Made by a program: the position numbers and the translations under genes
Source of the DNA: Raillietiella orientalis
Taxonomy: Eukaryota
Length of the DNA: 64,000 nt
Direction: 5' to 3'
Assembly: GCA_036172245.1 (NCBI GenBank)
Contig: JAYWIR010000076.1
Location: 124,001 to 188,000, forward strand
Shown here: positions 265 through 52,667 of the stretch, piece after piece
Numbering within the stretch: position 1 is the first letter of the stretch
How the letters are laid out: each line of letters begins with the position of its first letter
The notes under the pieces: generated by a model
The model's database searches: none
Told to the model about the DNA's origin: nothing
The model's input: the letters and a program-made list of their open reading frames with translations, nothing else

Positions 265-3200
265 TTACAACCCGGGTACGCCCAGGACGATTATTAAAAA
301 AAACTCTACAATTGCGGTACCAGGCCCCGCTCACGGCCTTATGCACACGATCTACCGGTACGCCGGGACGCAGCCCGGCGTGGCACTCCCCGGCAGCGAC
401 AGGGGATGGGGAAAAAACAGAAGTGAAATAAAAAAACCACAAACAAACAAAAGAGGTTGGAGGGCAGGGAAGGGATCATCGTTCGCTGAGAGGAGGGCCC
501 ATCCGTTGAAGGAAGCCCTCGAAGTCCATCCGTATCTTCCTTAGTTGGGGCCATCGAGCAGCTCTCCGCAAGAAGCGTTGGGCATATGGGATGACATCCC
601 TCGCGTGTTGACCCACTTCTTCCTTGTTAGTGTCGCTATATGCCGCCACGATGCCACGGACGCAGCACCAGGCTGCAAGGGCTGCGGCTGGATGCAGGGC
701 GTCCTTCACGAAGAGGGGCCGAAGAACGTCTATAGGGAACTGCCCGTAGGGAGACCGAGGATCGTACCAAATCGTTCCCAAAGGGGACGAAGGGCAGCAC
801 AGTCCACAATAAGGTTGGAGAGCGATTCCCGCTCTCCGCACCTGACACACGCAGGATCCACAACTCCTCTTGTCCAGTGAGAGCATAGTGCGTTGCAGGG
901 TAAACCCCAATGCAACAACAGCAACGCCGACTCTTTCCAATTAAGGAGTAGGATCCTGGATTCCTGAAGAAGCGGGGGCCACTTCAGCACATCCATAGGG
1001 ATGACCAGCAGCTCGCCCCATCTTCTCAGTCCTCGCAACTGGACGCTCGGTGTTGTGGCGTCGGCCAGTTCTCCTGTTGTCCAGCCGCTGATCAACTTCT
1101 CGCGTCCCTTGATGCAGCAGGAGACATGCCACCTTGTCGTCCGGCTGCTGTGAAGTGCCCTCCTCAGGAAGGGCAGCGCCGTAGCTAGGCAGGTCGTCTC
1201 TGCCCACGTGCATCTTACTGGAATCTCCAGGAGATTCCGCAGCGTGCGGCGGGCGAAGGGGCTGCATCGGAGACGATTCCACGTTTCGTGGCTCCTCTGG
1301 TTAACCGCTACCCACGTTCCAATATTCACCTCCAGCCAGGCGGGGGAGTTGGCGGGGCAGCAAACCATCCAGCTGTTCTCCTTGGCCAATATAGCCATGC
1401 GCCCGAGCAGTAGGCCGCATCTTCGCATCTTCCGGCCACGGCTCAGAAGAAAAGACGCGAGTCCATCGCACTGGGACACACGGCTGGCCAGGAGGCGGGC
1501 TGGAGTGCACCAAGGAGTGCTCAACATCTTCGCTGCGATGGCGAGGGTTCGCCACTGCAGCTGATTCTCCACGCGCTCCAGCGTCAGGAGGCGAAAACCG
1601 CCGTCGCGACGCGGAGCGCACAAGTCCTTCAGAGGGACTCGGGGCCTCCCCTTGCCCCAAAGGGCGATACGGAGGAGGTCCTTCGTCCTGTTCTTGGATT
1701 CCACGGTGAGGGGCATACAAAAAGCAAGGGGCGGAGGATAAAGGCCGCAAAGGCGTTTCAAACCGCGGCCCGTTCCGGCAAGTGAAACTTGCCTTCCAGG
1801 AACGGGCCGATCGCCGGCTCGTCTTTTTGGAGGCAGCTGGACCACGCTTCCGCAGGGGAGGAGTCCCCCAACGGCACACCGAGGTACTTGAAGCACCTCG
1901 CCGTAGGGATCCCCAAACAGATTCAGTCCTGCTGCCCTGCCCACGCCGCACCTATCGGCACAACCGACGACTTCGCCACTGTTAACCTGCTGTCCGGTCC
2001 CGCGACTGAGCAGATCGAAGAAGTTTCCGTCCGCCTTTGCCGGGGTAGACATTGGCAACAAATGCAGAAGATCGTCGGCGTACGCTGCTACGGCGGGAGT
2101 GCCGGGGCACGAGCTCGGCAAGGGGGCCAAAGTCTCCCTGTAAGCTCTCAGCACCATCTCAAAGTAGGTGCTGAAGAGAAGGGGGCTGAATCTATCGCCC
2201 TGTCTTATGCCCCGCCGCAACGGCACGCCATACACCTTCTGTCCACTGAAAGACACGGTAATCATCGCATTCCGCCAGCAAGAGCGCAAATAGGAAATCA
2301 GGGAGGGTGGGAAGCCCATGCGACCCAGGAGCTCCAAGAGGAGTTCCTGGTCTACACAGTCGAACGCCTTGTGGAGATCGACTGCGAGCGCTAGGGCCCC
2401 CTTCCCCGCCCGGGGATCCCTTTCCAGCCCGTCTGGCGGCCCCAATGTGGGGTTGCCGACTTTCCCTATCCCTTTCTTTTCTCTTCTCTGCAGGTGCACC
2501 CATGTGCTTTCGAAGAAGAGGTTGGCATCCATACTTCGCCCGGGAACAGCATAAGTCTTCTCCGGGCTAATTACCGATTCTGCCACCTGCCCCAGACGCG
2601 AAGCCCATAGCCCTACTATCAACTTGGCGTCCGTATTCACGATCGTGATCGGACGCCAGTTCTTTAAATTCCTGAGGTCTCCCCCTTTCGGAAGGAGCCT
2701 CACTCTGGCTGACCGAAACGAGACGGGAACATCGCCTTCGTCTCGGATCAGCCCGATCAACTTGAGCAGCAGGGGTGCCAGCTCTTCCGTGAAGCTCTGA
2801 AAGAACTTCGCTGGCAAGCCGTCTTCCCCTGGAGCTTTACGCCTCTTGAGCCTTTTGATACCGGCGAGAATTTTGCCGGTGGTAAAAGGCTCGTCGAGGC
2901 TTTCCATCTCCTCGTCCCCTATTGCCGGGGCGCCATCGGGAAGCAAGAGCCGAGAGGCGTTTCGATTCGGGGGCTCCCTGGCGTAAAGGGAGGAATAAAA
3001 ACTCCGCACGACATGCCGTACCGACGCCGGGGACGAACATTCCCGGCCCTGGTCGTCCAGCAAGCTGGCCGACCCGGAGTGCCAGGCTTGGCGTTCGGCC
3101 CCGCCGCGGCACTCGGCCAGGCGACGGACATTAGGGGTTCTTTCGTACCTACGAGCCTGTAGATAGGCTTGATGGTTGCGAGCACCGTCGTTGAATCCGG

Positions 3201-29427: not shown

Positions 29428-31025
29428 TACTGCTGGGAAAGTGATGCTGCGTCTCCCGCCTCACCTAGGGGCGGGACGCCGGCTTTCTCCTGTGCGGTGG
29501 GGGGCGGCTTGACGACCCCTCTGTCTCCATCGGCTTCGTCTCGACCGATCGTGGGAGTTCAGGACTCGTGTCCATCTCTTCCACGCTCGCCGCACCCTCG
29601 TTTCCGGAGGATTCCCCTTCCTCGGAGGAAACGATCCTCCTTGGGTTACGGATTTTCCTTCCGGTCTTCCTCGGGGGTGCAGATGCGGATGGTGCGTGTC
29701 CGGTCTCCGGGTCCGAGTCCGAGGTCCCGGTCCCCCTCCTCTCGGCCGGACGTCGAACGGCCTTCTTCCCGACCTTTGCGGGAGGCTGCTGACTGGCGGC
29801 GAGCTCGGCGGCGGCTTTTGCAAAGCCAGCGTCATCGCGGCTCCCCCTCGCCGCAGCCCTCGGACGCTGTTTGCACAGCGACGGGGCTGTCAGCGTTGTT
29901 GCACACGGCAACGTCCTGTTCGCACGGCACTTCGGCGTCTGCAAGGCGCTCCAGTGCGACCGTGCATTTTTTCAGTCCCTGCTTTTTCGCGGGTTTCGCG
30001 GTTTTTGCAGGGACTTTATTTTTATTATTTACGTCCTTTTTTTCTTTCTTTTTCTTTAGACTGACCTTTTGCCAGCCAGGCTCTTCTCCTTCCACCTCGG
30101 TTGCCTGCGTTTCTGCAGACGGGGTGGTCGGGATGCCCTTTTTGGCTGGCTCCGGGTCAACCGTATTTTCAGACGGCGGCCTGGTCTTGCCAGGCTTCTT
30201 GCTGGCGTTCGTGCCGCTCACGGCAGCAGCCGGCGCGCGCGAAGTATTTTTGGGGAACACTTCTTCCGTGTGCCCGATTGCCTCGCACTTGCGGCAGGTG
30301 ATGTTGGGGCAGCGTTTCTTCACGTGCCCCGTACCATCACAAAACGCACAGTATTTGGGTTTCCCCAGATACCAGATGTCGACAGAATCTCCGTCGACTA
30401 CTAGTTTATGGGGAACCCCAATGTCCTTATTCACAGTCACACGTGCCGCGGCGAGTCCGCTCAGGAGTCCGTCATAAGAACGGAACCTGTTGGGCTTTAG
30501 CCACAGCGCGTGTATGGTGCCGAATTGGCTGAGTTCAGCCCTAACGGCGCTCGGTGACATCCGCACGGTGATTCGACGGAGGTGGACAACTACTGAGTTG
30601 TCCACCGGGACAGGGAAGATCTGGCGGCCCTCGACCCCGACGGGGGTTCGCAGCAGTCTTTGCGCCAACCCTGCTTCTTTGCAGGTCAACTCGACATGCT
30701 GTCCCCCGCTGCGGATGGAGAGACCTAGCAGATCCTCCTTGTTAACGTTCAAACGGTGGAGCTCCTTCTGGAAGGAGCGCGCCACACGGTCATCAAACAG
30801 CCGGCCTACCTTATACAGCAGACTCGGGTTGTAGTTGTAGGCCTTGTAGGCCTGGGCCTCGGCGATGGCCGCTGCAGATGGCGCGGCGACCGCGGCGCTG
30901 TAGTCCCTCGCCGGCGCGGGGTACGAAGCTTTCGGGGCAGGTGCCCCTATCTCCATGGGTACGGGGGACGTTCGCCCGGCCACCACCCCACATTCACTAG
31001 TGGCGGGATCAGGCATTTCTGCCAT
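29427..31025 (-). pseudogene. D ORF1 (zinc knuckles, frameshifted tail)
   Basis: CAFCDGTGHVKKRC. ORFs 29832..31175 and 29465..29944. Confidence 0.84.
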
Positions 31026-31112
31026 CCCCCGACCACTGATGCACCGCACTACACCAATAAAGTCGAGCGAGTCAAGAGCGCGCAGAGAACACGTCTGACC
31101 GTCGGCACTGCT

Positions 31113-31764
31113 GGTGTTGCATTGGGGACTTCCTTGCAACGCCCGCCCACACCACTGGACGCGGGGGGGTGTCAACCCTAATTGTGTTAGGTGCGGGGAT
31201 AGGGAATACCTCCATCACCTGTTAGTGGATTGTGTTGCCCTCCGTCACTTGTGGGAACGCTTTGCCGCAGCCCTGGGGATCCCCGGAGGCAACCCCTGAG
31301 ACGCATTGCGCCCCCTCTACGTCTGTAACGCCCTGCCTCCTGCGGCCTCGCTTGAAGCCCTGTGCTGCCTACGCGGGAACGTCGTGGCATGGAGCAAAGC
31401 GACGGGAGGATCCAGCGACAGGGATGCCAACGTGTATGCCGCCCGTTTCCTCAGGATGGCGACGCGATGGCCCCATCTGGAACCACACACGCAGAAACAG
31501 CTTGCCGGCATCCTCCAGAGGATGACGGACCCTCCCAGCAGAATGTGATCCCTTCCCGCTCCCTCCCTGATTTTTGTTTATTTTTTGTTTTCTTTTTGTT
31601 TCGTTCCCCCTCCCCTCTGTTGCCGAGGTCGACCGCGCCGGTCTGCGCACCGGTAGCCCGGCAGGCTATATCTTTCCAGGGCGTGGCTGGACTACTGGTG
31701 CAGTCACAGATTTTATAGGTTTATTCGTGAGAATAAACGTCCCGGCGCACCCGGGTTTCAATCA
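31113..31764 (+). mobile_element. Element E segment 4 (ORF2 C-terminus, 3' UTR, terminal hairpin)
   Basis: CVRCGDREYLHHLLVDC, stop at 31546-31548, AATAAA at 31732-31737 plus CCCGGcgcacCCGGG, then TSD agattccggag at 31765-31775. Confidence 0.9.
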
Positions 31765-32103: not shown

Positions 32104-35100
32104 TTATCACCCGGTCACGCCGGGGCGTTTATTAAAAATAATAAACTGGTCAGAGACAATGTCCGAACCAACAGAACGACAGAGAACATAAGCTCCAACG
32201 CCTTGTGGAGATCGACCGCGACCGCCAAGGCACCTGGCGTTCTTTCCTGCCGTCGGCCCCTGTTATTTTTACCTGCGGCAGTGACTTTCGCAGCAGCCTG
32301 AGTTTGGTGCGCCACAACTTCCTGCAGCTGCATCCATGTACGCGCGAAAAGGATGTTCGCCTCCATGGATTGTCCCGGAACCGCGTAGGTTTGTTCCGGG
32401 CTCACCACAGATTCCGCGATACTTCCTAACCGCGCGACCCACAGCTTGGAAAACAACTTGACGTCCGAGTTCACCAAGGTGAACGGACGCCAGTTGTTAA
32501 GTTGACGCAAGTCTCCGCCTTTCGGCAGGAGACGCACCTTCGCTGAGCGGAAGGAATCCGGGACATTCCCGGATTCACTCATCAGCGTCGCGAGTTTCAG
32601 CATCAATGGAATGAGCTCCACTGCAAAGCACTGATAAAACTCTGCAGGGAGCCCATCCTCGCCTGGCGCCTTTCATCTCTTCAGCCCAGCGATTGCAAAC
32701 GAAAATTCATCCGCCGTGAAGGGCTCGTCGAGACGTTCGCGTTCCTCCTCGCCGACAACACGAGCACCCTAAGACAGGAGTATCTCAGAAAGAATATCCT
32801 CCGTCGGGAATTCCGCGTAGAGCGAAAAGTAGTACTGTCTCACAATGCGGCGTACTTCGGCTGGGGCCGAACATTCCTGGCCCTTATCGTCCAACAGGCA
32901 TGCTGCTACGGACTGCCAGACCTGGCGCTCGGCCCTCTCCTTGAAATCTGCGAGACGACCGAGACCCGGGCGTCTCGAAAACGTGCAGCCCTGTAGAAGG
33001 TCTCTACTGTTGGCCACGCCCTCTCCGAAACCTCGTGGAAGCCGGTGCAAGGGGAATTGGCAGCAGAACTCGCGGACAGATCTTTTGAGATCGTCCCAGT
33101 CCGCAAGTTCTTGAATGGCAAAGCCTCGGAGGTATCCACGTAGATGCTCCGCAGCCTCCGGTTGGCTAAGCCAATCCGCCTGCATCCTCCAGTTTTGCAA
33201 CGGAGGCCTCCTGCCTGGCGGAAGAGTCTCAAACTCCAACCTGTGGTGGTCAGAAAGCCTAGTCAACAATCTTCCTCTCCTACCCACACGCGTATGCAGG
33301 TTTTCATCGAGGAAAACGTGATCGAGCGATCTTTCCATTCCAGGTTCGCTGACCATCAAGTTGGCGGCGTGCACGGACGCGCACATCTCGATGGGCAGCG
33401 CGCGTTCCCTCGGGCGGCTCCAATCGTCGGAGAGCAGGCGGACGTTGAAGTCCCCAGCGACGAATTGCGTCACTTGGAAACCGGAGTTGTTGAGTCAGTG
33501 TCTCTGCACCTCACCAAAGAAAGCTACTCTTTCTTCGAGGTAGCGAGAGCCACTTGGCGAGTAGACGTTCGTAACGACGAGATCGATGGACTCGGACCAC
33601 TTGATGACAAGCTGGCCTATCCGTGCGTCGTCATCGAAACGAACACTACGCACCGCTTCCGCCATTTTTCCTCTTACGAGGAACGCGACGCCGCACGTGT
33701 GTGCGCCGCCGCACCGCCAATGTAGCGTTCCGCCTGTGCGCTCCTCGATTTCGGCTGCCTGCTCGTCGGAGATTACGTGAATCTCCTGCAGGAGCGCGAG
33801 GTCGAAGGGGCGCAGGGCGTTGGCTACTAATCGCCTTTTCTCGTCGTTCTGTAGTCCGTTCACGTTCCAACACGTTACGGACAGACGACGAGAAGACGCG
33901 ATTCCCCGCATTACTGCTGGGAAGGTGGCGGCTTTTTGCTCGCTTTATCCGGCGAGCAGCACGACTGGCTGGAAGGGACGGTCGCCACAGTCCTCCGTCG
34001 CGCTGCATGCATGTAATGGCTCCACGCCAGACTTAATCCCGTTGGGTTTCGTGGAGACTTTGCGTGGCTTCGCGGCTAGCGTTGCCTGGCTGCCTACTTT
34101 TGATCGGCGCGCACACGCTTTCGAACGAGTTGTCCTCGTCTTGGTGATCGGAACGGCATCCATTTCGCAGTCCGACCGGCGCATGTTCGATCGGGTTTCG
34201 GCCTTCCGCGAAGTAGTGACAGGTTCTGCTTTATTGACAGCTGTCCTGGTGTCTTTTTCCGTCTCCAGAGCATCGCTTTTGGTGACGGCTGCTTTCCCGG
34301 CGCGCGTGTTTTCAGCGTGCTCACGCGCAGTTCCACGAGGGAGCTTTGCTGAAGTCTTCTTTACTTCATTACGGTTCCTCACTTCGCGTGGCGCCATAAA
34401 TGGAGATTGTGCTCCATTGCCATCTTTGAAACCATCCGCGTCTTTGGACGGGAGCACTTTTGGTGGCTTCGACACGCTCGTCATGGACGCTGCCTTCGGA
34501 AGGGCTTTTAATCCCTTCGTTGGCATGGCTTCCGCGCCAGTCGAGAGCTTGCTCTCCGACTGCGACATCGTGAGATTTTTCTCCGCTTTCGCGGTGTTGG
34601 ATCGCGACGCGGATTTTTTTTTGCCGACTTTCGAAGTCGACACGGCACAACCCTTCTTACCCGAGCTGGGCTTCTCAGCCACTGCAGGAGGTGAAGGAAT
34701 GGATCTGACGGTACTGGAAGTGTCCTTACCGCTGTTGTCCATTGGCGTCCCCGCAAGTTGCTCGAACTCCGAGAGAGCCGGGCGTGCTTGGGAAGGACAG
34801 CTATTGCGCCTAGGGGGACTTACCATTGCCCCGGATTCCCCGAACCCTTTCTTTTGCGGCTCCTCTGCCGCAAGAGGGGGCGCGCAAGGCTTCGCGTGCG
34901 AGGTTTCCTGCTGCTTTGGGGCGACATTTCGCCTCGCGTTTTTTCGGAATTTCTGCCGTGGGGTCTCCAGGTTTTTCGCAGATTTTTTCTTTTTATCCGC
35001 GCTTTCTTTTTCAAGATGGAGCTTCGCGGCTGCCTTTTTTCGCAAAAGATCCGGGCAATTTTTCAATTGGTGCCCGGATAGTTTGCAATAACGGCATTTT

Positions 35101-38900: not shown

Positions 38901-40240
38901 GAAAGTCTCTACTGTTGGCCACGCCCTCTCCGAAACCGCGTGGAAGCCGGTGCAAGGGGAATTGGCAGCAGAACTCGCGGACAGATCTTTTGAGATCGTC
39001 CCAGTCCGCAAGTTCTTGAATGGCAAAGCCTCGGAGGTATCCACGTAGATGCTCCGCAGCCTCCGGTTGGCTAAGCCAATCCGTCTGCATCCTCCAGCTT
39101 TGCAACGGAGGCCCCTGCCTGGCGGAAGGATCTCAAACTCCAACCTGTGGTGGTCAGAAAGCTTATTCAACAATCTTCCTCTCCTACCCACACGCGAATG
39201 CAGGTTTTCATCGAGGAAAACGTGATCAAGCGATCTTTTCATTCCAGGTTCGCTGACCATCAAGTTGGCGGCGTGCACGGACGCGCACATCTCGATGGGC
39301 AGCGCGCGCTCCCTCCGGCGGCTCCAATCGTCGGAGAGCAGGCGGACTTTGAAGTCCCCATCGACGAGGTGCGCCACTTGGAAACCGGAGTTGTTGAACC
39401 AGTGGCTCTGCACCTCACCAAAGAAAGCTATTCTTTCTTCGAGGTAGCGAGAGCCACTTGGCGCGTAGACGTTCGTAATGACGAGATCGATGGACTCGGA
39501 CCACTTGATTACAAGCTGGCCTATCCGTCCGTCGTCATCGAAACGAACACTACGCACCGCTTCCGCCATTTTTCCTTTTACGAGGAACGCGACGCCGCAC
39601 GTGTGTGCGCCGCCGCACCGCCAATGTAGCGTTCCGCCTGCGCGCTCCTCGATTTCGGCTGCCTGCTCGTCGGAGATTACGTGAATCTCCTGCAGGAGCG
39701 CGAGGTGGAAGAGGCGCAGGGCGTTGGCTACTAATCGCCTCTTCTCGTCGTTCTGTAGTCTGTTCACGTTGCAACACGTTACGGACAGACGACGAGAAGA
39801 CGCGATTCCCTGAATTACTGCTGGCATGTTGGCGGCTTTTTGCTTCCTTTGATTGGCTAGCGGATGGTAAGCAGCACTGCTGGCTGGAGATCACGGTCGC
39901 GACCGTCCGCCCTGGTGCTGCACGAATTCGAGTGCTCGTCTCCGGGTAGAGTCTTTTGACGGTTAAAAAAGCGGACGAAGGACCTCTACCGTATCGCACT
40001 TCGGGCAACGGGAGGGCTCGGGTCCGCTTGTGAGATTTTTGCGCTCCACGTGGTGACGTTGATCTCGGTCATCGGACATTGGAGCGGCTGGAGCTTCAGA
40101 TCGAGTTCCCAATGTTGTCACTTGTGCCGGAGTAGTGGTGCACCTGCTGGTGCGTCCCTGCATGTCTCCTCGTCAAGAAAGCCACTGGAAAGACAATACT
40201 AACGTCGTTTCTTTCACTCTGTGGATCCTGCATCAACCGA
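35910..40240 (-). mobile_element. Element C2, tandem to C1; full-length but broken ORF2, 5' truncated within ORF1 (right boundary approximate)
   Basis: 3' motif 35910-35939, RT 37396..38526 (YADD), APE 38745..39827. Confidence 0.87.
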
Positions 40241-40244
40241 TGTG

Positions 40245-41390
40245 GGCTCCAGATGCGGAGGGTGTCCGCCTTGGTTCGGAAAAATCAAGGATTGATCACC
40301 TGTCGCCCCTCGAACAGTGGTATCTGGTTGCTGGAAACTGTTTGCACGTGGGGACAGTTCGGCATGCAACGCTCCCAACAGGAACGACGGTTTCTGTTTG
40401 GGGGTTATAGAAGTTGCACGCTCCGAGAGGTCCTGAAGGATCCGAAGAAACGAGCGTGGTCAGTAAGAACCCCCATCGCTGCTGAGCTGGACTCCCTAGT
40501 GGAAGATCAGGACAGCGATGTTGCGGCGAAGTGGGTGGTTTCAGTTACAATCTGCGGAAAGGAGGAGAAGCTAGGAGAGTGGAAGACGGGTCAGCTGACT
40601 GCCTCCCCAAGTACGCCTCCCCATGGACTTCTGCGCTGGGGCGCGTTGCTCGACATTTCCATTGAACATCTGAAGTGGCCCCCGGTACTAATGAAAACCT
40701 CCACCCTCCCCTTGAAATGGCAGGTGTCGGCTCTCCTGTTGCAGCACTGGGAACTCCCCTGCAACGCCCGCCGACACCACTGGACCTGGGGAGCGGAATA
40801 TCCCAATTGTGTTAGATGTGGGGAACGGGAGTGCCCCTCCACCTGCTTGTGGATTGTGTTGCCCTTAGGCCCCTTTGGTTTCGCTTTAACGCGGACATCG
40901 GAATCCCCTGCGGCAACCCCAGGGACGCACTGAAAGCCCTCTTCGTTGCCGACGCCCTTCGGCCAGCGGCCTCGTTAGCAGCTTTGTGCTGCCTACGCGG
41001 GATCGTCACCGCTTGGAGCAAGGCTACGGGAGGACAACGCGACCAGGGTGCCATCCAGCCAGCCTCCCAGTTCCTGAGGAGGGCGTCCCGATGGCCCCAC
41101 CTGGATCCAGGAATACAGAAGGAGCTTGCCGGCATCCTGCAAAGGATGCAACGGCCCCACCAGCAACTGTGATCCCTTCCCTTACCCTCCCAACTTTTCT
41201 TTTCTTTTTTGTTTTGTTTTTTGTTTTTCCCCCTTCCCCCTGCTGCCGTGGTGGACCGTACCGGTCTGCGAACCGGTGACCCGGCAGGCTCTGTGTTTCT
41301 TCGTGCGTGGCTGGAACCATGGTGCAGCCACTGCACGTCTTTGTAGAAGTTTATTTTACAATAAACGCCCCGGCGAAATCCGGGTGAAAA
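40245..41390 (+). mobile_element. Element G, 3' fragment (left boundary approximate)
   Basis: ORFs 40253..40933 and 40816..41172 (CVRCGERE, HLLVDC). AATAAA at 41360-41365 plus CCCGGcgaaatCCGGG-TGAAAA. Confidence 0.87.
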
Positions 41391-42186
41391 TCGAACGCCT
41401 TATGGAGATCGACTGGGATCGCTGCGAGCCCCTTCCCCGCCCGGGGGTCCCTTCCCAGCCCGGCTGGCAGCCCCAATGTGGGGTTGCCAACTTTCCCTAT
41501 CCCTTTCTCTTCTCTTCTCTGCAGGTGCACCCATGTGCTTGCGAAGAAGAGGTTGGCATCCATACTTCGCCCGGGAACAGCATAAGTCTGCTCCGGGCTA
41601 AATACGGATTCTGCCTCCTGCCCCAGACGCGAAGCCCATAACCCTGCTATCAACTTGGCATCCGTATTCACGATCGTGATCGGACGCCAGTTCTTTAAAT
41701 TCCTGAGGTCTCCCCCTTTCGGTAGGAGCCTCACTCTGGCTGACGTAAACCAGGCGGGAACATCGCCTTCGTCTCGGATCAGCCTGATCAACTCGAGAAC
41801 CAGGAGGGCCAGCTCTTCCGCGAAACTCTGAAAGAACTCCGCGGGCAAGCCGTCCTACCCTGGCGCCTTACGCCTCTTGAGCCTTTTGATACCGGCGAGA
41901 ATTTCACCGGTCGTGAAAGGCTCATCGAGGCTTTCTCTCTCCTCCTACCCTATCGCCACGGAACCACTAATGAGCAATCTCCGCAAGGCGTCTCGTTCGG
42001 GTGGTGTTTTTTGGCGTAAAGGGAATAATAAAAACTCTGCACGAGATTCCGTACCGCAACCGGGGACGAGCGTTCGCGTCCCAGGTCGTCCAGCATGCTG
42101 GCCGACCCGGATTATCAGGCTTGCCTCTTGGCCTCGGCGCGGTATTCAGCCAGGCGACGAACATTGGTGGTCCTCTCAAAAGGATG
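41391..42186 (-). mobile_element. Element H, A-like ORF2 fragment (linker and RT N-terminal half); host of G
   Basis: Closely matches A 2360-3140 (VHLQRREEKGIGKVGNPTLG..DLHKAF). Confidence 0.87.
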
Positions 42187-42189
42187 GGT

Positions 42190-43003
42190 CCATTTTTTGG
42201 ACAGACACCTGATTGACAAGCTTCCTTTAGATCATCTGGAATATCCACTCCAGACATATGCTTCATTACATGGACATAACTTCATATGCACATGACTTTT
42301 TGTTTCACCGTCCAGCAGAGAACCTTGCGAACTGTCTATCCAAGGAAAACGTACATAACGCATCAATTGACCTCCGTAACTTGCAACAGACTTACTCAAA
42401 TACGCTCGCGAATACACACGGATACCACGCACGCCAAAATAACGAGCAAAGCAGACAGATGTTTCGCCATGGCCAGCAATCACGTCCTCCAATTTACTGT
42501 ACGGCAAACCCTCCAAACCTTCAAAATAATCTCCTTGCTTCGATGATTGGTACAACATCATGTTTCGATATGACACCTCCATACCGCACTCATCACCCAT
42601 GTTACCAATAGTGACATAGGCTCCACCTTCATCGCGCAACTCTTCACGCGGACATATCTATAATACCTTGCAAATTGTATCAAATCTAAACTTCTGAATG
42701 CATTTTCCACGGAAATTTCTGTCTCCTGATACGTGAACATCCAAGAACAATTCAAGTGGTCACCATCTGCTGTTCTTAAAGAACTGTAATGCGTAGCTCC
42801 ATCTGTTACATCACGAGACACTACTCGAGTTACACGAGCTAATCGTAAAAGAGGGACCTTACACGTCTTCGGAAGTTCCAACGATGACCACGCTTAAATG
42901 TACTATATCCAGGTGCTCGTCTACTCAACCTACGCCTTTTTACTACTTCATAACCAACAACCTGCTTTCTCTTGCGAGAGCGAGCAGAACGAGGTGATGC
43001 CAT
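42190..43003 (-). pseudogene. cap: CRESS virus capsid (frameshifted)
   Basis: N-terminus MASPRSARSRKRKQVVGYEVVKRRRLSRRAPG..HRWNFRRRVRS, then QFARYYRYVRVKSCAMKVEP. Divergent from Rep across the origin. Confidence 0.75.
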
Positions 43004-43247
43004 TCCGCTGCTTGACAGCGTACTTGCGACCTAAGTCAACCCCACGCCCTCTTTTAGTCTAGCTGGTGGGCACGCCCACCCGACTTTATGAGCCTTTCGC
43101 GAGGTTGGGTTACGCCACGCACTTCCCACGTGGACAGCAACAGCTTGTTCCGCATTCCTAAGTCTTCCACGATTGCGGACATAAACCAGCCACTAAAAAT
43201 ATCTACTTGCAACATATCGGAATTTCCCAAGGATTTGCGTTGTCAGA

Positions 43248-43289
43248 GAAATGCAATCTGTGTAATACTATTTACCAGATTGCAATTTC
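43248..43289 (-). promoter_or_regulatory. Rolling-circle origin: stem-loop with the nonanucleotide TAGTATTAC
   Basis: Arms gaaatgcaatctg and cagattgcaatttc enclose gtaatacta (43262-43270), the reverse complement of TAGTATTAC. Confidence 0.92.
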
Positions 43290-43371
43290 TGCAGAGTTAC
43301 TCAGTATATATACCACTCCACAGACAACGAAATCCAAGTCTTACTTACAGTAAATTTCAGACAGCACCATT

Positions 43372-44385
43372 ATGGTGCCTTACGCATTATTTTTTAACTG
43401 GTGTCTCACTCTATGTAACTTCACCGATGATGAACTGAAGGACATCAAAGACTGGTGCCGATCGAACTGCTTGTTTGCATGCATCGGGAAAGAAACGTCA
43501 AGCACCGGCACACCACATCTCCAAGGTTACATGCAACTCAAAGAGCCTCGCACCATGCCTGGATTAAAGCGAAAACCATTTCATAAGTGCCATCTAAAAA
43601 AGGCACGCGGATCTCCTCAGAGCAACTTACGGTACTGCACTAAAGAAGACAAAAATGCCTGGACTTACGGAGCAATTCCACGACACAAACGAACCTACAA
43701 CTTACGAAGACTAGGTAAGCCACAAAAGTCGTTAACAACATGATCAAAAACCTCTCCACTAGGTACTCCAACTTATTAAAGATGGCACTGACAAGAAATT
43801 TATATTAAAGAAACACAAAATTTTACTCCAGGAACATAAACTTCGTAAAAGAGTGCTTCCGCCTTACACGCAGCAGAGCACATCCTAATCCATTAGACAA
43901 ACTATAACTCTAATCATGGCAAATGGACGTCCTAAAAATTATTCGCCAAAAACCCGAACTTCGCAAAATCTATTGGTACTATGATCCTGTCGGTGGCAGG
44001 CAAGACAACCATGGCGAAATTCCTCTATCTGAAAAAGGGTGCCATATACATGCACTCCTATAAAAAAGCAGATGCCGCTCACATCTACAACGGCGATCGC
44101 ATCATTGTAGTGGACTCCACCCGAGACACACAAGAAACATTTCAATATAGATTCATCGAAACGCTCAAAAATGAAATTATTTCCGACTCAAAGTATCAGG
44201 GATCCATCAAGTACTTTCAACCACCTCACATTCTTGTGTTCTCTAACTGGGAACCAAATTACGATAAAATGAGCATTGACAGGTGGACAGTTCGAGACAT
44301 ATCCAAATCTGATGCTTATCGTTTAACTTCTTGGATGATGGATGAAGAAGGTGCCATTCTCCCTTGGGCTTGCACTTTAAGCTAG
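43372..44385 (+). pseudogene. rep: CRESS virus replication-associated protein (HUH endonuclease + SF3 helicase), frameshifted
   Basis: Motif I WCLTLCN, II PHLQG, III YCTKE. Walker A split by a frameshift (YYDPVG / AGKT), Walker B IIVVD, motif C LVFSN. Confidence 0.92.
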
Positions 44386-44501
44386 GGCTTGAAGTACAGC
44401 GCAAGCCCGCGACTCGACTGACTCCTACTCCTCCACATTGTCACCCACTCCACCTTTTTTGATGAAATATAACATTCACTCGTTACTTTGCTCTTTCTTT
44501 A

Positions 44502-44790
44502 TTAGTATAAGCCTACATCTTTAAGATGCTTGAACACCACATAGTATTTACGAGTTACCCTGTATATCGGATATCCCTTAGTCAATCGCCCATTTTTCGG
44601 ACAAACACCTGATTGACAAGCTTCCTTTAATTCGTCTGGAATATCCACGCCAGACATGTGCTTCATTATATGTATACGGTTGAAATGAACAAAACTTTTT
44701 GTTTCCACATCGTTCAGGTAGCTTCGCTCAGCTGGCCGTTCAGCCAAGAACGTGTACGAAATGTCCGAACCTGCGCTTCCTCTCGTACTA
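44502..44790 (-). pseudogene. cap: Capsid C-terminal segment, diverged from the overlapping part of the first copy
   Basis: MKHMSGVDIPDELKEACQSGVCPKNG matches MKHMSGVDIPDDLKEACQSGVCPKNG at 42190-42266 and continues to YYVVFK and a stop. Confidence 0.78.
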
Positions 44791-47009
44791 AGCAGGATTG
44801 CTATCGCAAGGACCATTCGTCAGTGGGACACAACTAACCTATCTCGTGACGGTCCCAACCCAGCTCACGTTCCCCGTTGGTGGGTGAACACTTCAACGCA
44901 TGGCGAATTCTGCTTCGCATTGATAGGGAAGAGCCGACATCGAAGCATCAAGAAGCGACATCTTTATGAACTAAGTATGATGCTGAGGTGGCCCCTGAAG
45001 TTGCTTCTGGAGTTACTAAGGCTTGCGTGGATACTCCCACCCCAGATTCTCTGTGATGGCTCAGGCCACTGTGGTAGTTATAAGCTTCTTGAAGACCTTG
45101 GAGAACAAATAGAGGTCTTGCGAGATGCTTGTACTGAGACCTTTACAGAGTTGCGATCTATAGCTTCTCAGGCACCTGAGCCTAAAGAAGACTATTGTCA
45201 AGGCAGTGAAGGCCGGGGTCCGAGAATTCAGGGGAGAGGCTTTTGTGAATCATGCTCCCACAGTTGTACACAACCAGGGAAACTTGGTAGGTGAACTCCA
45301 GAAGGAGTCCATGTTATCAGGGAATGTTGCCAAAGGCCAGCTTTCAGGGTTGCAGGCAAATTGCGACCGATTATCATCGGAATTAGCCTCCCTGGAAAAA
45401 ATGATCGCGTCTGGGAAATCTTATCCGAGCCAGCGAAAGAGCAAAGCGTTTGCCTACGACAAGGTCGTGGGAGGAAGAATAACAATTCCTTAACAGCTTG
45501 CCATTTCCATTATGCTCCACCTAATAAAATGAGGAACTCCATTTCAGCTACTAAGTTACTAGTGAACGAACCTTTTTTCTTTCATGTACAATATCAAGGT
45601 AGTAATAATGTCTCCATCGCATGTCTTGTTCGAAAGGTTTGAGGTAAGCAAATATTTCATGAATCTCCTTTTTTGCTTTTATATAATGATTTTCTTCCTT
45701 AATTCCATCGCACTCAAACACCCTGCAGAGTTACATGGAGAGCATCTCGAGATACATAAACTGACATTTTGAGTAAGGATTCCGCTTACCTGCCCTTGAA
45801 ACTGAGACTCTCTTCTTCCTTTCCGCAAAGGACCAATGGCTACCTGATCATCCTGAGTGGGGTTTGCTTTTTGATGCTTTTCCATTGCCCCAGCACTGCA
45901 TCAGCTATTTATCAGTAATGCATAGATACTCGAGATTGATTTTCAATCTCTGTACCACCTTAGCGGAAACATTAACGCTGAAAGAGAAAGAAAAAAATGC
46001 ATTTGCAGCCTGACAACGTGGCCAACGTGAAACTAAGAATTGAGTGACACGCTGCATTTTCTTTTATGAATTTTGTGCTTTTTCATGGCTACCTTGCAGG
46101 GTTTAGCAGCATTACATGAAATTGGAATTCATGAAAATTCACTGTGTCCTCTTAAGTACACACAATTTACTTGACTTTCAAGTTTTTTGCATTAAAATGC
46201 ATATCGCTTGCTCCAAGGTATGATTTCATCTACTTATGTATCCCAATCTCCTTTTATTTTTGAGGAATGTGCTCCCAGCCACAGAATCTCTAAAGATGCA
46301 GCCTCATCATTGGTCTTTAGGTACATATACAAATACAATTGTCAATTTAAAATGAAAAAAAAAAAAACATCCTTGAGTTGAAATGGCACTCGGCAACAGC
46401 GCCTTTTCACCGTGAATTGCGTGGAGCGTAGTTGCAACGGTTGCCATCAGATTGTCTTTATGGAAAGTTTTCACATACTGCCGCCATATTTGAGGTTAAC
46501 TCTCTCACACACACCTTACTCAGTTTTCTCACACACGAACCTAAGGAGATCTGAACGTTCAGCCGAGCAGTTGGAGATTAGATGATATGCTTGCAGTCAA
46601 AGTGCCAAGAGCTGTTTCGGCATCAGACTGCCTTTTTTCCAGGAGATTCTCCTTGCGACAGGTAGGTCCGATTCCTCCAGACGCCTTTACTGTGTGTATT
46701 TAACCGTAATTAAAGAACGGAAGACCAAATCATGCTGAATATTTTAAAACATTGAACGCCTGGAAAGATGAAGAACTTACCCAAGGTACCACGATTAAAC
46801 CGAAATGCCAAAAGTAAAACCAGGAATAGTTTAATTAACGTTCCCAGCGCTACGGGAGCAAAATCACGACCGCCATCCAATCTAATGGCGGGTCAATAAG
46901 CTCACTGGAAGGTTTTTTTTTCCACTAATAATCCCAGAAATTCGTATGCTGCCCAGCAATAAGCTAGGCGTCTTATAATATGAAAGGATAATTTCTAACT
47001 TGGAACTTT

Positions 47010-52205: not shown

Positions 52206-52667
52206 ATGTCGCTAAGTGATTTCCGCGAAGAATGCCTCCAGGCTCACAACAAGCACAGGCAGGCGCATGGATGTTCCAAGATGCAGCTGAAGGATGACTT
52301 GAACGCCGTGGCGCAGAAGTGGGCAGAGAAATTGGCGAACTCAGAGCGCCTCGAGCACCAGAAAGACAACAAATACGGAGAGAACCTCTTTTACAAGGAA
52401 TCTACGGAGCCGCTGGGTGAGTTCCGAGGAGGCGAAGCCGTCGAGAGCTGGTACAACGAAATAAAGGATCACAACTTCGGGGAAGAGCCCAGAACGAGGA
52501 ACCTTGCCTCTGGTCACTTCTCGCAGCTCATCTGGAAGAGCTCCAAGTATCTCGGAGTGGGGATGGCAAAGTCAAAGAACGGGAAGAAGGCCTACGTAGT
52601 GGCGGAATACTCTCCCAGTGGGAACGTCATGGGGTCCTTTAAAGAGAATGTCCCTCCCCAAAAGTAA
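52206..52667 (+). CDS. CAP/SCP-domain protein, GAPR-1 (GLIPR2)-like, 153 aa, intronless CDS
   Basis: AHNKHRQAHG, AQKWAEKL, YGENL, AVESWYNE, GHFSQLIWK, VVAEYSPSGNV. Confidence 0.92.
   Translation: MSLSDFREECLQAHNKHRQAHGCSKMQLKDDLNAVAQKWAEKLANSERLEHQKDNKYGENLFYKESTEPLGEFRGGEAVESWYNEIKDHNFGEEPRTRNLASGHFSQLIWKSSKYLGVGMAKSKNGKKAYVVAEYSPSGNVMGSFKENVPPQK

What the first reader, a model, noticed from the sequence alone, without database searches (positions are those of the whole stretch)
42190..44590. Near-complete endogenous CRESS-DNA virus with an intact origin, fused to the retrotransposon pile
Seen: Cap(-), origin, Rep(+), then the Cap C-terminus, giving a circle of about 2.4 kb opened within cap and joined directly to element H. 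TAGTATTAC lies on the Cap-coding strand. Known: that polarity is the cyclovirus-type arrangement. The helicase half (IYWYYD, ETLKN..DSKY, PPHILVFSN, MSIDRW) looks to me more like nanovirus/alphasatellite-type Reps than circovirid Reps. Inference: an unclassified CRESS lineage whose host this fossil would identify.
Basis: partly seen in the sequence, partly recalled or inferred. Interest (0 to 1): 0.72.

Follow-up and report, generated by a model that had tools for sequence, protein, structure and literature searches.

The report
Fossil CRESS virus between rRNA and LINE
A dead but full-length copy of a small circular DNA virus from an unclassified lineage sits in this chromosome between a scrap of ribosomal RNA sequence and a truncated jumping gene, which may show how the virus DNA got into the genome.

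Summary
Window 42190-44717 is one 2400-nt CRESS-DNA virus genome plus about 128 nt of terminal redundancy. It carries Rep (+ strand), a capsid-like gene (- strand), and a stem-loop with TAGTATTAC on the capsid strand.

Both genes are broken. The two redundant ends differ by 10-14%. It is therefore an old germline fossil, not a contaminant.

Rep is at most 45-46% identical to anything found. Its nearest named relative is Dragonfly larvae associated circular virus-10 (group CRESS4, 38% identity). The helicase carries the nanovirus/CRESSV4-5/smacovirus signature, not the circovirid one. The helicase tree does not resolve its place. The capsid-like gene matches nothing.

The right end abuts a roughly 245-nt 28S rRNA fragment, and the left end abuts a 5'-truncated LINE. 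All three point the same way. This matches known 28S/LINE chimeric retrocopies. My best reading, at about 0.45, is that the LINE's reverse transcriptase captured the virus by template switching, perhaps copying the circular virion DNA for more than one turn. End-joining capture is the main rival.

The decisive test, a target-site duplication around the whole composite or reads spanning the junctions, could not be run. Earlier notes from this scan report other LINE-associated virus captures elsewhere in this genome. I did not check them.

The parts
42190..44717 (-). Whole endogenous CRESS-virus copy: one 2400-nt genome unit plus about 128 nt of terminal redundancy. The virion-sense strand (the one carrying TAGTATTAC) is the window's - strand.
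   Evidence: Direct repeats spaced 2400 nt apart. Left/right alignments. Rep and origin evidence.
43372..44385 (+). Rep pseudogene. Pieces: nuclease domain 43372-43713; linker 43763-43888 in a second frame; the stretch up to Walker A, 43914-43997, in a third frame; helicase 43996-44385 back in the first frame. There are at least three frame changes and a premature stop at 43886-43888.
   Evidence: Pfam Viral_Rep at 8.1e-14. tblastn of 8 relatives shows the three frames. HMMER search gave 4181 hits. PDB hits to circovirus-type nuclease domains at E about 1e-13.
43715..43762 (+). Candidate 48-nt Rep intron with GT...AG ends. It is unresolved, because the flanking frames do not join in phase.
   Evidence: Read from the sequence and the frame map. 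Rep introns are described in cycloviruses (PMC8471302).
43249..43287 (-). Origin-like stem-loop. The nonanucleotide TAGTATTAC lies at 43262-43270 in the loop. It sits in the 368-nt region between the divergent capsid start (43003) and Rep start (43372).
   Evidence: Inverted repeat I4. Fold z = -4.54, 0 of 200 shuffles as good. Single occurrence in the 64 kb.
42190..43003 (-). Capsid-like gene, first roughly 270 codons. Of the first 50 residues, 19 are Arg or Lys. The frame changes near 42840-42890, 42560-42655 and 42232-42285.
   Evidence: ORF list and translations. The assignment rests on position, orientation and composition only. No homologue was found.
44502..44589 (-). End of the capsid-like gene (last 29 codons and the stop). 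An AATAAA signal overlaps the stop. It is separated from the Rep stop by 116 nt.
   Evidence: ORF 44502..44819 on the - strand. Sequence read.
44590..44717 (-). Terminal redundancy: a second copy of 42190-42318, 10-14% diverged with small indels.
   Evidence: 8 mismatches in 83 columns. 14 mismatches and 5 gap columns in 117 columns. K2P distance 0.105-0.15. Alignment A2.
44717..44959 (-). 28S (LSU) rRNA fragment, model positions about 2862-3103 of 3401. It is sense on the - strand and directly abuts the viral DNA, with about 1 nt of overlap. Weaker similarity may extend to about 45020.
   Evidence: Rfam RF02543 scored 102.9 bits, E 2.1e-23, at gathering threshold, and 138.2 bits, E 1.1e-34, with alignment.
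41390..42189 (-). LINE 'H', 5'-truncated. Only ORF2 residues about 58-320 of the reference copy are present, with no ORF1 or endonuclease domain. Bases 42178-42189 are of uncertain origin. At 41390 the copy is interrupted by another LINE's 3' end.
   Evidence: blastn and tblastn maps. Junction alignment A1. RVT_1 hit at E 1.6e-4, below the Pfam cut-off. Full copies carry zf-CCHC, Exo_endo_phos and RVT_1.

Best explanation
This is an old, inactive germline copy of an unclassified CRESS-DNA virus. The virus had a 2.4-kb circle, divergent Rep and capsid genes, and its origin nonamer on the capsid strand. It has no likely present function. That part is near certain.

How it got there is inferred. 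While LINE 'H' was being copied into the chromosome by target-primed reverse transcription, the reverse transcriptase left the LINE RNA inside ORF2 and switched to viral nucleic acid of virion/capsid sense. It copied 1.05 genome lengths, switched again to 28S rRNA for about 245 nt, and was then joined to the chromosome. The result reads, on the - strand, 28S fragment, then viral genome, then 5'-truncated LINE.

The viral template was most simply the circular single-stranded virion DNA. The enzyme can run past its starting point on a circle. The alternative is a capsid-sense read-through RNA of at least about 3.4 kb. Later LINEs then nested into H.
For: Shown:
- Rep, the origin and the 2400-nt unit are present.
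- Both genes are decayed. The two redundant ends have diverged 10-14%. They would have been identical when copied from one circle.
- The left junction is at 42189/42190 to a LINE that lacks ORF1, the endonuclease and the first part of ORF2.
- The right junction is at about 44717 to a 28S fragment.
- All three segments are sense on the - strand: 28S by Rfam strand, the LINE by its RT frame, and the virus by its nonamer.
- The viral ends (42190, 44717) are not at the origin nick site. They are also not at the capsid AATAAA signal (about 44495-44500). So neither Rep-catalysed joining nor a plain mRNA retrocopy fits.
- No rDNA context lies to the right. 38 ORFs of at least 70 aa between 44950 and 51981 have no Pfam hit.

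Precedent from papers:
- Primate 28S/LINE-1 chimeric insertions: n = 18, median 28S segment 269 nt (range 50-482), 83% sense to the LINE, attributed to template switching or RNA ligation (PMC11838501, passages read).
- Tripartite LINE chimeras attributed to double template jumps (PMC2104539, title and start of abstract seen in the listing).

Leads not checked by me: scan notes e1-7514593, e1-7592027 and e1-7590210 report other LINE-associated captures of virus pieces in this genome.
Against: - Co-orientation of three segments has a 1 in 4 chance under random joining.
- The junctions show only 1-3 nt of possible overlap, which fits end joining as well as template switching.
- The defining footprint, a target-site duplication around the whole composite, could not be sought. 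The 3' part of H is not traceable in the LINE nest and no genome is held.
- That a LINE reverse transcriptase would copy a DNA circle for 2.5 kb is my inference from recalled biochemistry, not from any call.
- Whole and tandem CRESS genome integrations are known without any LINE involvement (PMC10193959; PMC6372831).
Confidence: 0.45

Rival explanations
1. End-joining capture. A chromosome break was repaired by ligating loose DNA pieces: an rDNA or 28S cDNA scrap, a greater-than-unit-length double-stranded viral replication product, and a truncated LINE cDNA. Their shared orientation is coincidence.
For: The junctions have little or no overlap. Viral copies longer than one unit, including tandem copies, are known for circovirus fossils (PMC6372831, passages read). 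Rolling-circle replication naturally gives products longer than one unit (established knowledge).
Against: It needs three unrelated fragments in one repair, all in the same sense (1 in 4). The size and sense of the 28S fragment match what is reported for LINE chimeras. The LINE is truncated exactly at the junction.
Confidence: 0.27
2. Separate events. The virus (perhaps as a longer concatemer) integrated first next to an older 28S pseudogene scrap. LINE H later inserted into the capsid gene, splitting the insert. The remainder lies beyond the LINE nest.
For: LINEs in this region insert repeatedly and nest (scan notes). A fusion of circovirus fossils with LINE-1 is reported in carnivores (PMC6372831).
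Against: No further CRESS-like sequence lies in the 42 kb to the left (0 matches outside 42150-44850; blastn). The direct abutment of the only 28S fragment in 64 kb with the viral end would be unexplained. Co-orientation would be chance.
Confidence: 0.2
3. Contaminant or misassembly. An exogenous virus contig was wrongly joined to host repeats.
For: No sequencing run could be listed to check the junctions. This is not evidence either way.
Against: There are at least three frame changes and a premature stop in Rep, and three frame changes in the capsid-like gene. The two copies of the redundant end differ by 10-14% with indels, which an assembled circular genome would not show. Both junctions are to degraded host repeats.
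Confidence: 0.03

Closest known systems
Whole-genome endogenous krikovirus elements (Draupnirviridae, formerly CRESSV3) in snakes, lizards, turtles and insects (Kinsella and van der Hoek 2023, PMC10193959; sections 6 and 7 read)
   Same: Paired capsid and Rep fossils integrated as whole virus genomes, with many stops and a lower GC content than the surrounding DNA.
   Different: This Rep's helicase has Glu (by hand alignment) where CRESSV3 is reported to have Leu, and Asn at sensor 1. Its nearest named relative is filed under CRESS4, not CRESS3. Krikovirus type 1 capsids are circovirus-like by HHpred, whereas this capsid-like gene matches nothing. In the sections I read, no rRNA-LINE composite is described.
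Endogenous circovirus elements: tandem full genomes in cyprinid fish and LINE-1-fused copies in carnivores (Dennis et al. 2019, PMC6372831; passages read)
   Same: Integration of more than one genome length, and physical fusion of a CRESS fossil with a LINE.
   Different: Those are true Circovirus relatives. In carnivores the LINE fusion is read as later co-amplification. Here the virus lies between a 28S scrap and the truncated 5' end of one LINE, and Rep is not circovirid.
[quoted passage not shown]
   Same: A sense-oriented 28S segment of about 250 nt at the 5' side of a 5'-truncated LINE, with segments fused directly.
   Different: A 2.5-kb DNA-virus genome copy of more than one turn is the middle segment. 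The target-site duplication was not shown. The LINE family here is not mammalian L1.
CRESS4 group Reps, such as Dragonfly larvae associated circular virus-10 (Kazlauskas et al. 2018, PMC5923481; passages and Supplementary file 1 read)
   Same: The same Rep layout. 38% identity in both domains to the DflaCV-10 cluster. The same PDB pattern: the nuclease domain hits circovirus entries and the helicase hits none.
   Different: Identity is low and the helicase tree gives no supported clade. Membership is open.
Cyclovirus (Circoviridae)
   Same: Two divergent genes. The nonamer (C/T)AGTATTAC lies on the capsid-coding strand. Rep introns occur (PMC8471302).
   Different: The helicase is not circovirid. 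The capsid-like gene gives no Circo_capsid hit. The 2.4-kb unit is larger than the roughly 1.7-2.1 kb I recall for the family (recalled, not from a call).
Nanoviridae / Alphasatellitidae
   Same: Helicase signature: a single sensor-2 Arg and alpha-3 Glu. The '...S-x-D-R-W' tail is carried by Reps filed as 'AlphaNanoSmacolike' in Kazlauskas's table.
   Different: Rep and capsid lie on one 2.4-kb circle. Nanoviruses have multipartite circles of about 1 kb with one gene each (recalled). The nuclease domain is nearer circovirus entries (E about 1e-13) than the nanovirus entry (3e-5) in the PDB.

Membership tests
Cressdnaviricota (CRESS-DNA virus) | Rep with an HUH nuclease domain (motifs I-III) followed by a superfamily 3 helicase (Walker A, Walker B, motif C) | tested here: met
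   Pfam Viral_Rep at 8.1e-14. The motifs are visible in the alignments to relatives. The helicase piece has 4181 relatives. Motif I is altered and Walker A is split by a frame change.
Cressdnaviricota (CRESS-DNA virus) | Origin stem-loop with a nonanucleotide of the NANTATTAC type between the genes | tested here: met
   TAGTATTAC in the loop of a 13-14 bp stem, z = -4.54.
Cressdnaviricota (CRESS-DNA virus) | Capsid protein gene | tested here: inconclusive
   The position, orientation, size (about 300 codons) and basic N-terminus fit. There was no hit in Pfam, the PDB, the Atlas, 90 related genomes by tblastn, or 12 capsid-cluster HMMs. The fold model had pLDDT 31.
Circoviridae (genus Cyclovirus) | Nonamer on the capsid-coding strand, with two divergent genes | tested here: met
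   The definition comes from PMC8471302. The feature is shared by 51 of 90 non-circovirid relatives, so it is not diagnostic.
Circoviridae (genus Cyclovirus) | Circovirid helicase: two sensor-2 arginines, Leu at the conserved alpha-3 position (PMC8780604), and similarity to PCV2 Rep | tested here: not met
   There is one Arg only and Glu by hand alignment. No PDB hit at E<=1, although 7LAR is in the library.
Nanoviridae / Alphasatellitidae | Helicase signature (single sensor-2 Arg, alpha-3 Glu, Walker B Asp, sensor-1 Asn) | tested here: met
   Read from the alignment against the states listed in PMC8780604 section 10. The alpha-3 position was assigned by my own hand alignment to PCV2 recalled from memory. 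This is inference.
Nanoviridae / Alphasatellitidae | Multipartite circles of about 1 kb, each with a single gene | tested here: not met
   Rep and the capsid-like gene share one 2400-nt unit. The family feature is recalled, not from a call.
CRESS4 (CRESSV4) group of Kazlauskas et al. 2018 | Rep falls in the monophyletic CRESS4 clade | tested here: inconclusive
   The nearest named relative, DflaCV-10, is CRESS4, at 38% identity. In a 150-row helicase tree no supported clade holds the window's Rep. Reference sets for the other groups could not be loaded.
Draupnirviridae / Krikovirus (CRESSV3) | Rep within CRESSV3, with alpha-3 Leu reported for the group | tested here: not met
   Glu at that position by hand alignment. 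No phylogeny with CRESSV3 references could be built, so this rests on the signature alone.
LINE chimeric retrocopy made by template switching | Segments in the same sense, with the LINE 5'-truncated at the 3' side and the segments fused directly | tested here: met
LINE chimeric retrocopy made by template switching | One target-site duplication flanking the whole composite, with the LINE 3' end at the other side | not testable with these tools
   The 3' part of H could not be traced in the nest. No genome is held and no runs were listed.

The most novel reading that the evidence does not exclude
A LINE reverse transcriptase switched from its own RNA onto the circular single-stranded virion DNA of a CRESS virus. 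It ran round the circle for more than one turn, then jumped to 28S rRNA. On this reading, LINE target-primed reverse transcription is a direct route by which ssDNA viruses, and not only RNA viruses, enter animal germlines. It would also explain why virus fossils in this genome sit at LINE ends.
Probability: 0.27. Interest if true: 0.8.

Novelty: new variant of a known kind. Interest (0 to 1): 0.55.

Why it matters
Whole-genome CRESS virus fossils are already known, so the fossil itself is a new member of a known kind. It ties a Rep lineage otherwise seen only in metagenomes (at most 46% identity to anything found) to a eukaryotic host genome. Most CRESS viruses lack that link.

The more interesting part is the anatomy of the insertion. 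The order 28S scrap, 1.05 viral genomes, truncated LINE, all in one sense, is the footprint expected from template switching during LINE reverse transcription. That mechanism is accepted for RNA-virus fossils. I did not find it described for a complete ssDNA-virus genome in two full-text searches (only the listed titles and abstract starts were seen).

If confirmed, it would give a testable mechanism for the endogenisation of ssDNA viruses. It would also explain why virus fossils cluster with LINEs in this genome.

Tried and rejected
- **Whole genome.** None is held for this window. Other copies, the 3' end of LINE H and a target-site duplication could therefore not be sought.
- **Sequencing runs.** None was listed for 41900-45300, and no RNA holder was listed.
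- **Word-index protein searches.**
  - The nuclease piece found 1 protein among 8 candidates.
  - The helicase piece found none of 210 candidates.
- **Names of relatives.** Among the 30 clusters looked up:
  - Two carried virus names: DflaCV-10 and Skomarfal virus 46.
  - One was a 'Methylococcales MAG' hypothetical protein. I read it as a mis-binned CRESS contig.
  - One was simply 'hypothetical protein'.
  - The other 26 carried no name.
- **Protein Atlas.** The helicase piece reached the phylum only. The capsid piece gave no usable hit.
- **Capsid-like gene.** Nothing matched in any search:
  - Pfam at E<=1;
  - PDB phmmer at E<=10, apart from one chance hit at E = 1;
  - IMG/VR pattern scan;
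  - tblastn against 10 and then 90 related genomes;
  - 12 HMMs built from non-Rep ORF clusters of those genomes, best 3.2 bits on the basic N-terminus.
  - The single-sequence AlphaFold model had mean pLDDT 31.2, so no fold search was run.
- **Chimeric Rep idea: rejected as unnecessary.** P0022, P0063 and P0016 match both domains at 39-45%. The CRESS4 reference shows the same PDB pattern. However, nuclease and helicase scores are uncorrelated across 118 proteins (Spearman -0.03).
- **Helicase tree.** 150 rows and 112 columns, with no supported clade for the window's Rep.
- **Intron 43715-43762.** It has consensus ends, but the frames do not join and length comparisons with relatives are ambiguous. 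Left open.
- **GC-rich palindrome upstream of the capsid start.** The fold is no better than shuffles (z = -0.29).
- **Scan notes by sequence.** No look-alike was found.
- **Named reference Reps.** The sequences printed in Kazlauskas's supplement were read but not loaded into any tool. No tree with labelled families was made.
- **Host organism.** Not identified.
Full report
**What is there**

Between 42190 and about 44717 the window holds one complete unit of a small circular Rep-encoding ssDNA virus plus a short repeat of its first part.

Rep lies on the + strand, from an ATG at 43372 to a stop at 44383-44385.
- The N-terminal piece 43372-43713 matches Pfam Viral_Rep (PF02407) at E 8.1e-14.
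- It also matches solved circovirus-type nuclease domains at E 1.6e-13 to 3.3e-11. The nanovirus FBNYV domain matches only at 3e-5.
- The C-terminal piece 43996-44382 has 4181 relatives at E<=0.001 in the 1.84-billion-protein library. Of these, 710 are at <=1e-10 and 1 is at <=1e-30. That one is a tandemly assembled CRESS contig filed under a bacterial MAG name.

On the - strand a capsid-like gene starts at 43003.
- Of its first 50 residues, 19 are Arg or Lys.
- It runs to 42190. Its last 29 codons lie at 44589-44502, 116 nt from the Rep stop.

Between the two start codons lies a stem-loop at 43249-43287.
- TAGTATTAC sits in the loop, on the - strand. It occurs once in 64 kb, against 0.09 expected.
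- The DNA fold has z = -4.54, and 0 of 200 shuffles fold as well.

Direct repeats spaced 2400 nt apart give the unit length.

**It is a fossil**

tblastn with 8 related Reps shows the Rep reading path moving through three frames:
- frame 1 covers 43399-43734;
- frame 2 covers the linker 43763-43888;
- frame 3 covers 43914-43997;
- frame 1 resumes from 43996.

There is also a premature stop at 43886-43888. The capsid-like gene changes frame three times.

The viral DNA overshoots one unit. Bases 44590-44717 repeat 42190-42318, and the two copies differ:
- 8 mismatches in the first 83 columns;
- 14 mismatches and 5 gap columns in 117 columns;
- K2P distance of 0.105-0.15.

Copies taken from one circle would have been identical at integration. 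The insert has therefore aged by roughly 5-7% per copy. I cannot convert this to years without a host substitution rate.

CpG is not depleted (observed/expected 0.94 in the insert and 1.03 in the LINE pile). This, together with the frame changes, rules out an exogenous contaminant contig.

**Which virus**

The best identities to any protein found are 45-46%:
- helicase: P0093, P0006 and P0004;
- nuclease: P0022 and P0001, 45%.

Three proteins match both domains at 39-45%: P0022, P0063 and P0016. No special chimeric history is therefore needed, although nuclease and helicase scores are uncorrelated over 118 proteins.

Of the 30 clusters looked up, two carry virus names:
- Dragonfly larvae associated circular virus-10 (38% identity in each domain);
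- Skomarfal virus 46.

DflaCV-10 is filed as 'CRESS4' in Supplementary file 1 of Kazlauskas et al. 2018. The main text places CRESS4 and CRESS5 at the base of the nanovirus/alphasatellite clade.

Several results set the helicase apart from circovirids:
- It finds no PDB chain at E<=1, although full-length PCV2 Rep is in that library.
- The CRESS4 reference behaves the same way.
- Tarasova and Khayat's survey (PMC8780604, section 10 read) lists diagnostic states. Against those, this helicase has Walker B Asp, sensor-1 Asn, a single sensor-2 Arg and Glu at the conserved alpha-3 position. That combination is given for Nanoviridae and Smacoviridae, and largely for CRESSV4-5. It is not the combination for Circoviridae or CRESSV3.
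- The alpha-3 assignment rests on my own hand alignment.

A 150-row helicase tree (112 columns) puts the window's Rep on a long branch with no supported clade. Membership of CRESS4 is therefore open.

The 'cyclovirus-type' polarity is real (definition in PMC8471302) but it is not diagnostic. Among 90 IMG/VR genomes related through Rep, 51 have the nonamer stem-loop on the strand opposite Rep, 18 have it on the Rep strand, and 21 had none detected.

The capsid-like gene matched nothing in any search. A single-sequence fold was unusable, with pLDDT 31. 'Capsid' therefore rests on position, size and the basic N-terminus.

**The flanks**

Left of 42190 the sequence is a LINE ('H') on the - strand.
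- Only ORF2 residues about 58-320 of a reference copy are present.
- Other copies continue upstream of the junction, while H gives way to viral sequence (alignment A1).
- Bases 42178-42189 are of uncertain origin.
- Full copies in the window carry a zinc-knuckle ORF1, an Exo_endo_phos endonuclease and RVT_1. H is therefore 5'-truncated by several kb.
- At 41390 H is interrupted by the 3' end of an opposite-strand LINE. This is the same ORF2 position (residues about 320-328) at which a second copy is interrupted at 32169. That agrees with scan notes on site-specific nesting.

Right of about 44717 lies a 28S rRNA fragment.
- Rfam RF02543 scores 102.9 bits, E 2.1e-23, at gathering threshold. With alignment it scores 138.2 bits, E 1.1e-34, over model positions about 2862-3103.
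- It is sense on the - strand and overlaps the viral end by about 1 nt.
- It is the only rRNA match in the 64 kb.
- Beyond it, 38 ORFs of at least 70 aa up to 51981 have no Pfam hit. A CAP-domain gene follows at about 52.2-52.7 kb. This is not an rDNA unit.

**How it got there**

Read on the - strand, the order is 28S fragment, then 1.05 viral genomes in virion/capsid sense, then 5'-truncated LINE.

This is the layout of LINE chimeric retrocopies. In primates, 18 28S/LINE-1 chimeras have a median 28S segment of 269 nt, and 83% are sense to the LINE. They are attributed to template switching or RNA ligation (PMC11838501). Tripartite chimeras attributed to double template jumps are described in Magnaporthe (PMC2104539, listing only).

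The viral ends lie inside the capsid gene. They are not at the origin nick site and not at the capsid AATAAA signal (about 44495-44500). The insert also contains antisense Rep and both intergenic regions. Rep-catalysed joining and an ordinary mRNA retrocopy therefore do not fit.

A capsid-sense RNA template would have to be a read-through transcript of at least about 3.4 kb. That figure is my own arithmetic from a transcription start assumed near the origin.

The circular virion strand is the simpler template, because it has the right sense and lets a polymerase pass its own starting point. That a LINE enzyme would do this is inference from recalled biochemistry.

Against this reading:
- co-orientation has a 1 in 4 chance under random joining;
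- the junction overlaps are only 1-3 nt;
- the defining target-site duplication could not be sought.

Whole-genome and tandem CRESS fossils (PMC10193959; PMC6372831) show that other routes exist.

My estimates are:
- template-switch origin, about 0.45;
- multi-fragment end joining, about 0.27;
- virus first and LINE later, about 0.2;
- artefact, about 0.03.

**Relation to earlier scan notes**

All of these notes are unchecked. Notes on other pieces of this genome report:
- a 1.15-kb CRESS fragment beside a LINE end (e1-7590210);
- a 1.44-kb CRESS piece inside a LINE with a 10-bp duplication (e1-7592027);
- a LINE-built same-sense array with a spliceosomal RNA, RNA-virus copies and part of a DNA-virus Rep (e1-7514593);
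- co-oriented virus clusters (e1-7510163).

I stated the template-switch idea before seeing these notes. They are leads for the genome-wide survey, not support. No look-alike of this insert was found by sequence.

**Verdict**

- The fossil is a new member of a known kind: a whole-genome CRESS fossil from an unclassified, CRESS4-like lineage.
- The 28S-virus-LINE composite is a new variant of LINE chimeric retrocopies, and it deserves a direct test.
- I found no description of such a composite in two full-text searches. One search found 158 papers and listed 20. One search found 24 papers and listed 15. Only the listed titles and abstract starts were seen.
- bioRxiv supplements and the supplements of the EVE surveys were not read. 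They may hold relevant cases.

Noticed in passing
window 44717-44959 (possibly to about 45020), - strand: This is the only rRNA match in the 64 kb: a degraded internal 28S fragment (model positions about 2862-3103) with no other rDNA around it.
   Followed up: yes
window 41390 and 32169: Two - strand LINE copies are both cut at ORF2 residues about 320-328 by the 3' end of a + strand LINE (39966-40917 and 30961-31293). Their 3' remainders are not visible in the window. This agrees with scan notes on LINEs that target a fixed RT codon of other LINEs.
   Followed up: partly
window about 52238-52664, + strand: A single-ORF CAP / cysteine-rich secretory protein domain gene (PF00188, E 6.5e-23). It is the first recognisable host gene to the right of the LINE pile.
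   Followed up: no
window 1-42000 versus 42000-64000: There is a sharp composition step: about 52-63% GC in the LINE pile, about 44% in the viral insert, and 29-33% at 57-61 kb. CpG is not depleted anywhere (observed/expected 0.69-1.1).
   Followed up: partly
protein P0002 (NCBI MCK5919361.1, labelled Methylococcales MAG): The top helicase hit holds two tandem copies of a CRESS Rep helicase on a 3.9-kb contig. It looks like a circular virus assembled past one unit and binned into a bacterial MAG.
   Followed up: no
loci L001-L090 (IMG/VR): Among relatives of this Rep, the nonamer stem-loop is on the strand opposite Rep in 51, on the Rep strand in 18, and not detected in 21. The 'cyclovirus' polarity is therefore the common state in this part of CRESS diversity.
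   Followed up: yes
window 43030-43130: A GC-rich stretch with short palindromes, including a CACGTG core, lies between the origin and the capsid start. It contrasts with the AT-rich remainder of the insert. Its fold is no better than shuffles (z = -0.29).
   Followed up: partly
window 43306-43313, + strand: A TATATATA run lies about 60 nt upstream of the Rep ATG. It may be the former Rep promoter.
   Followed up: no
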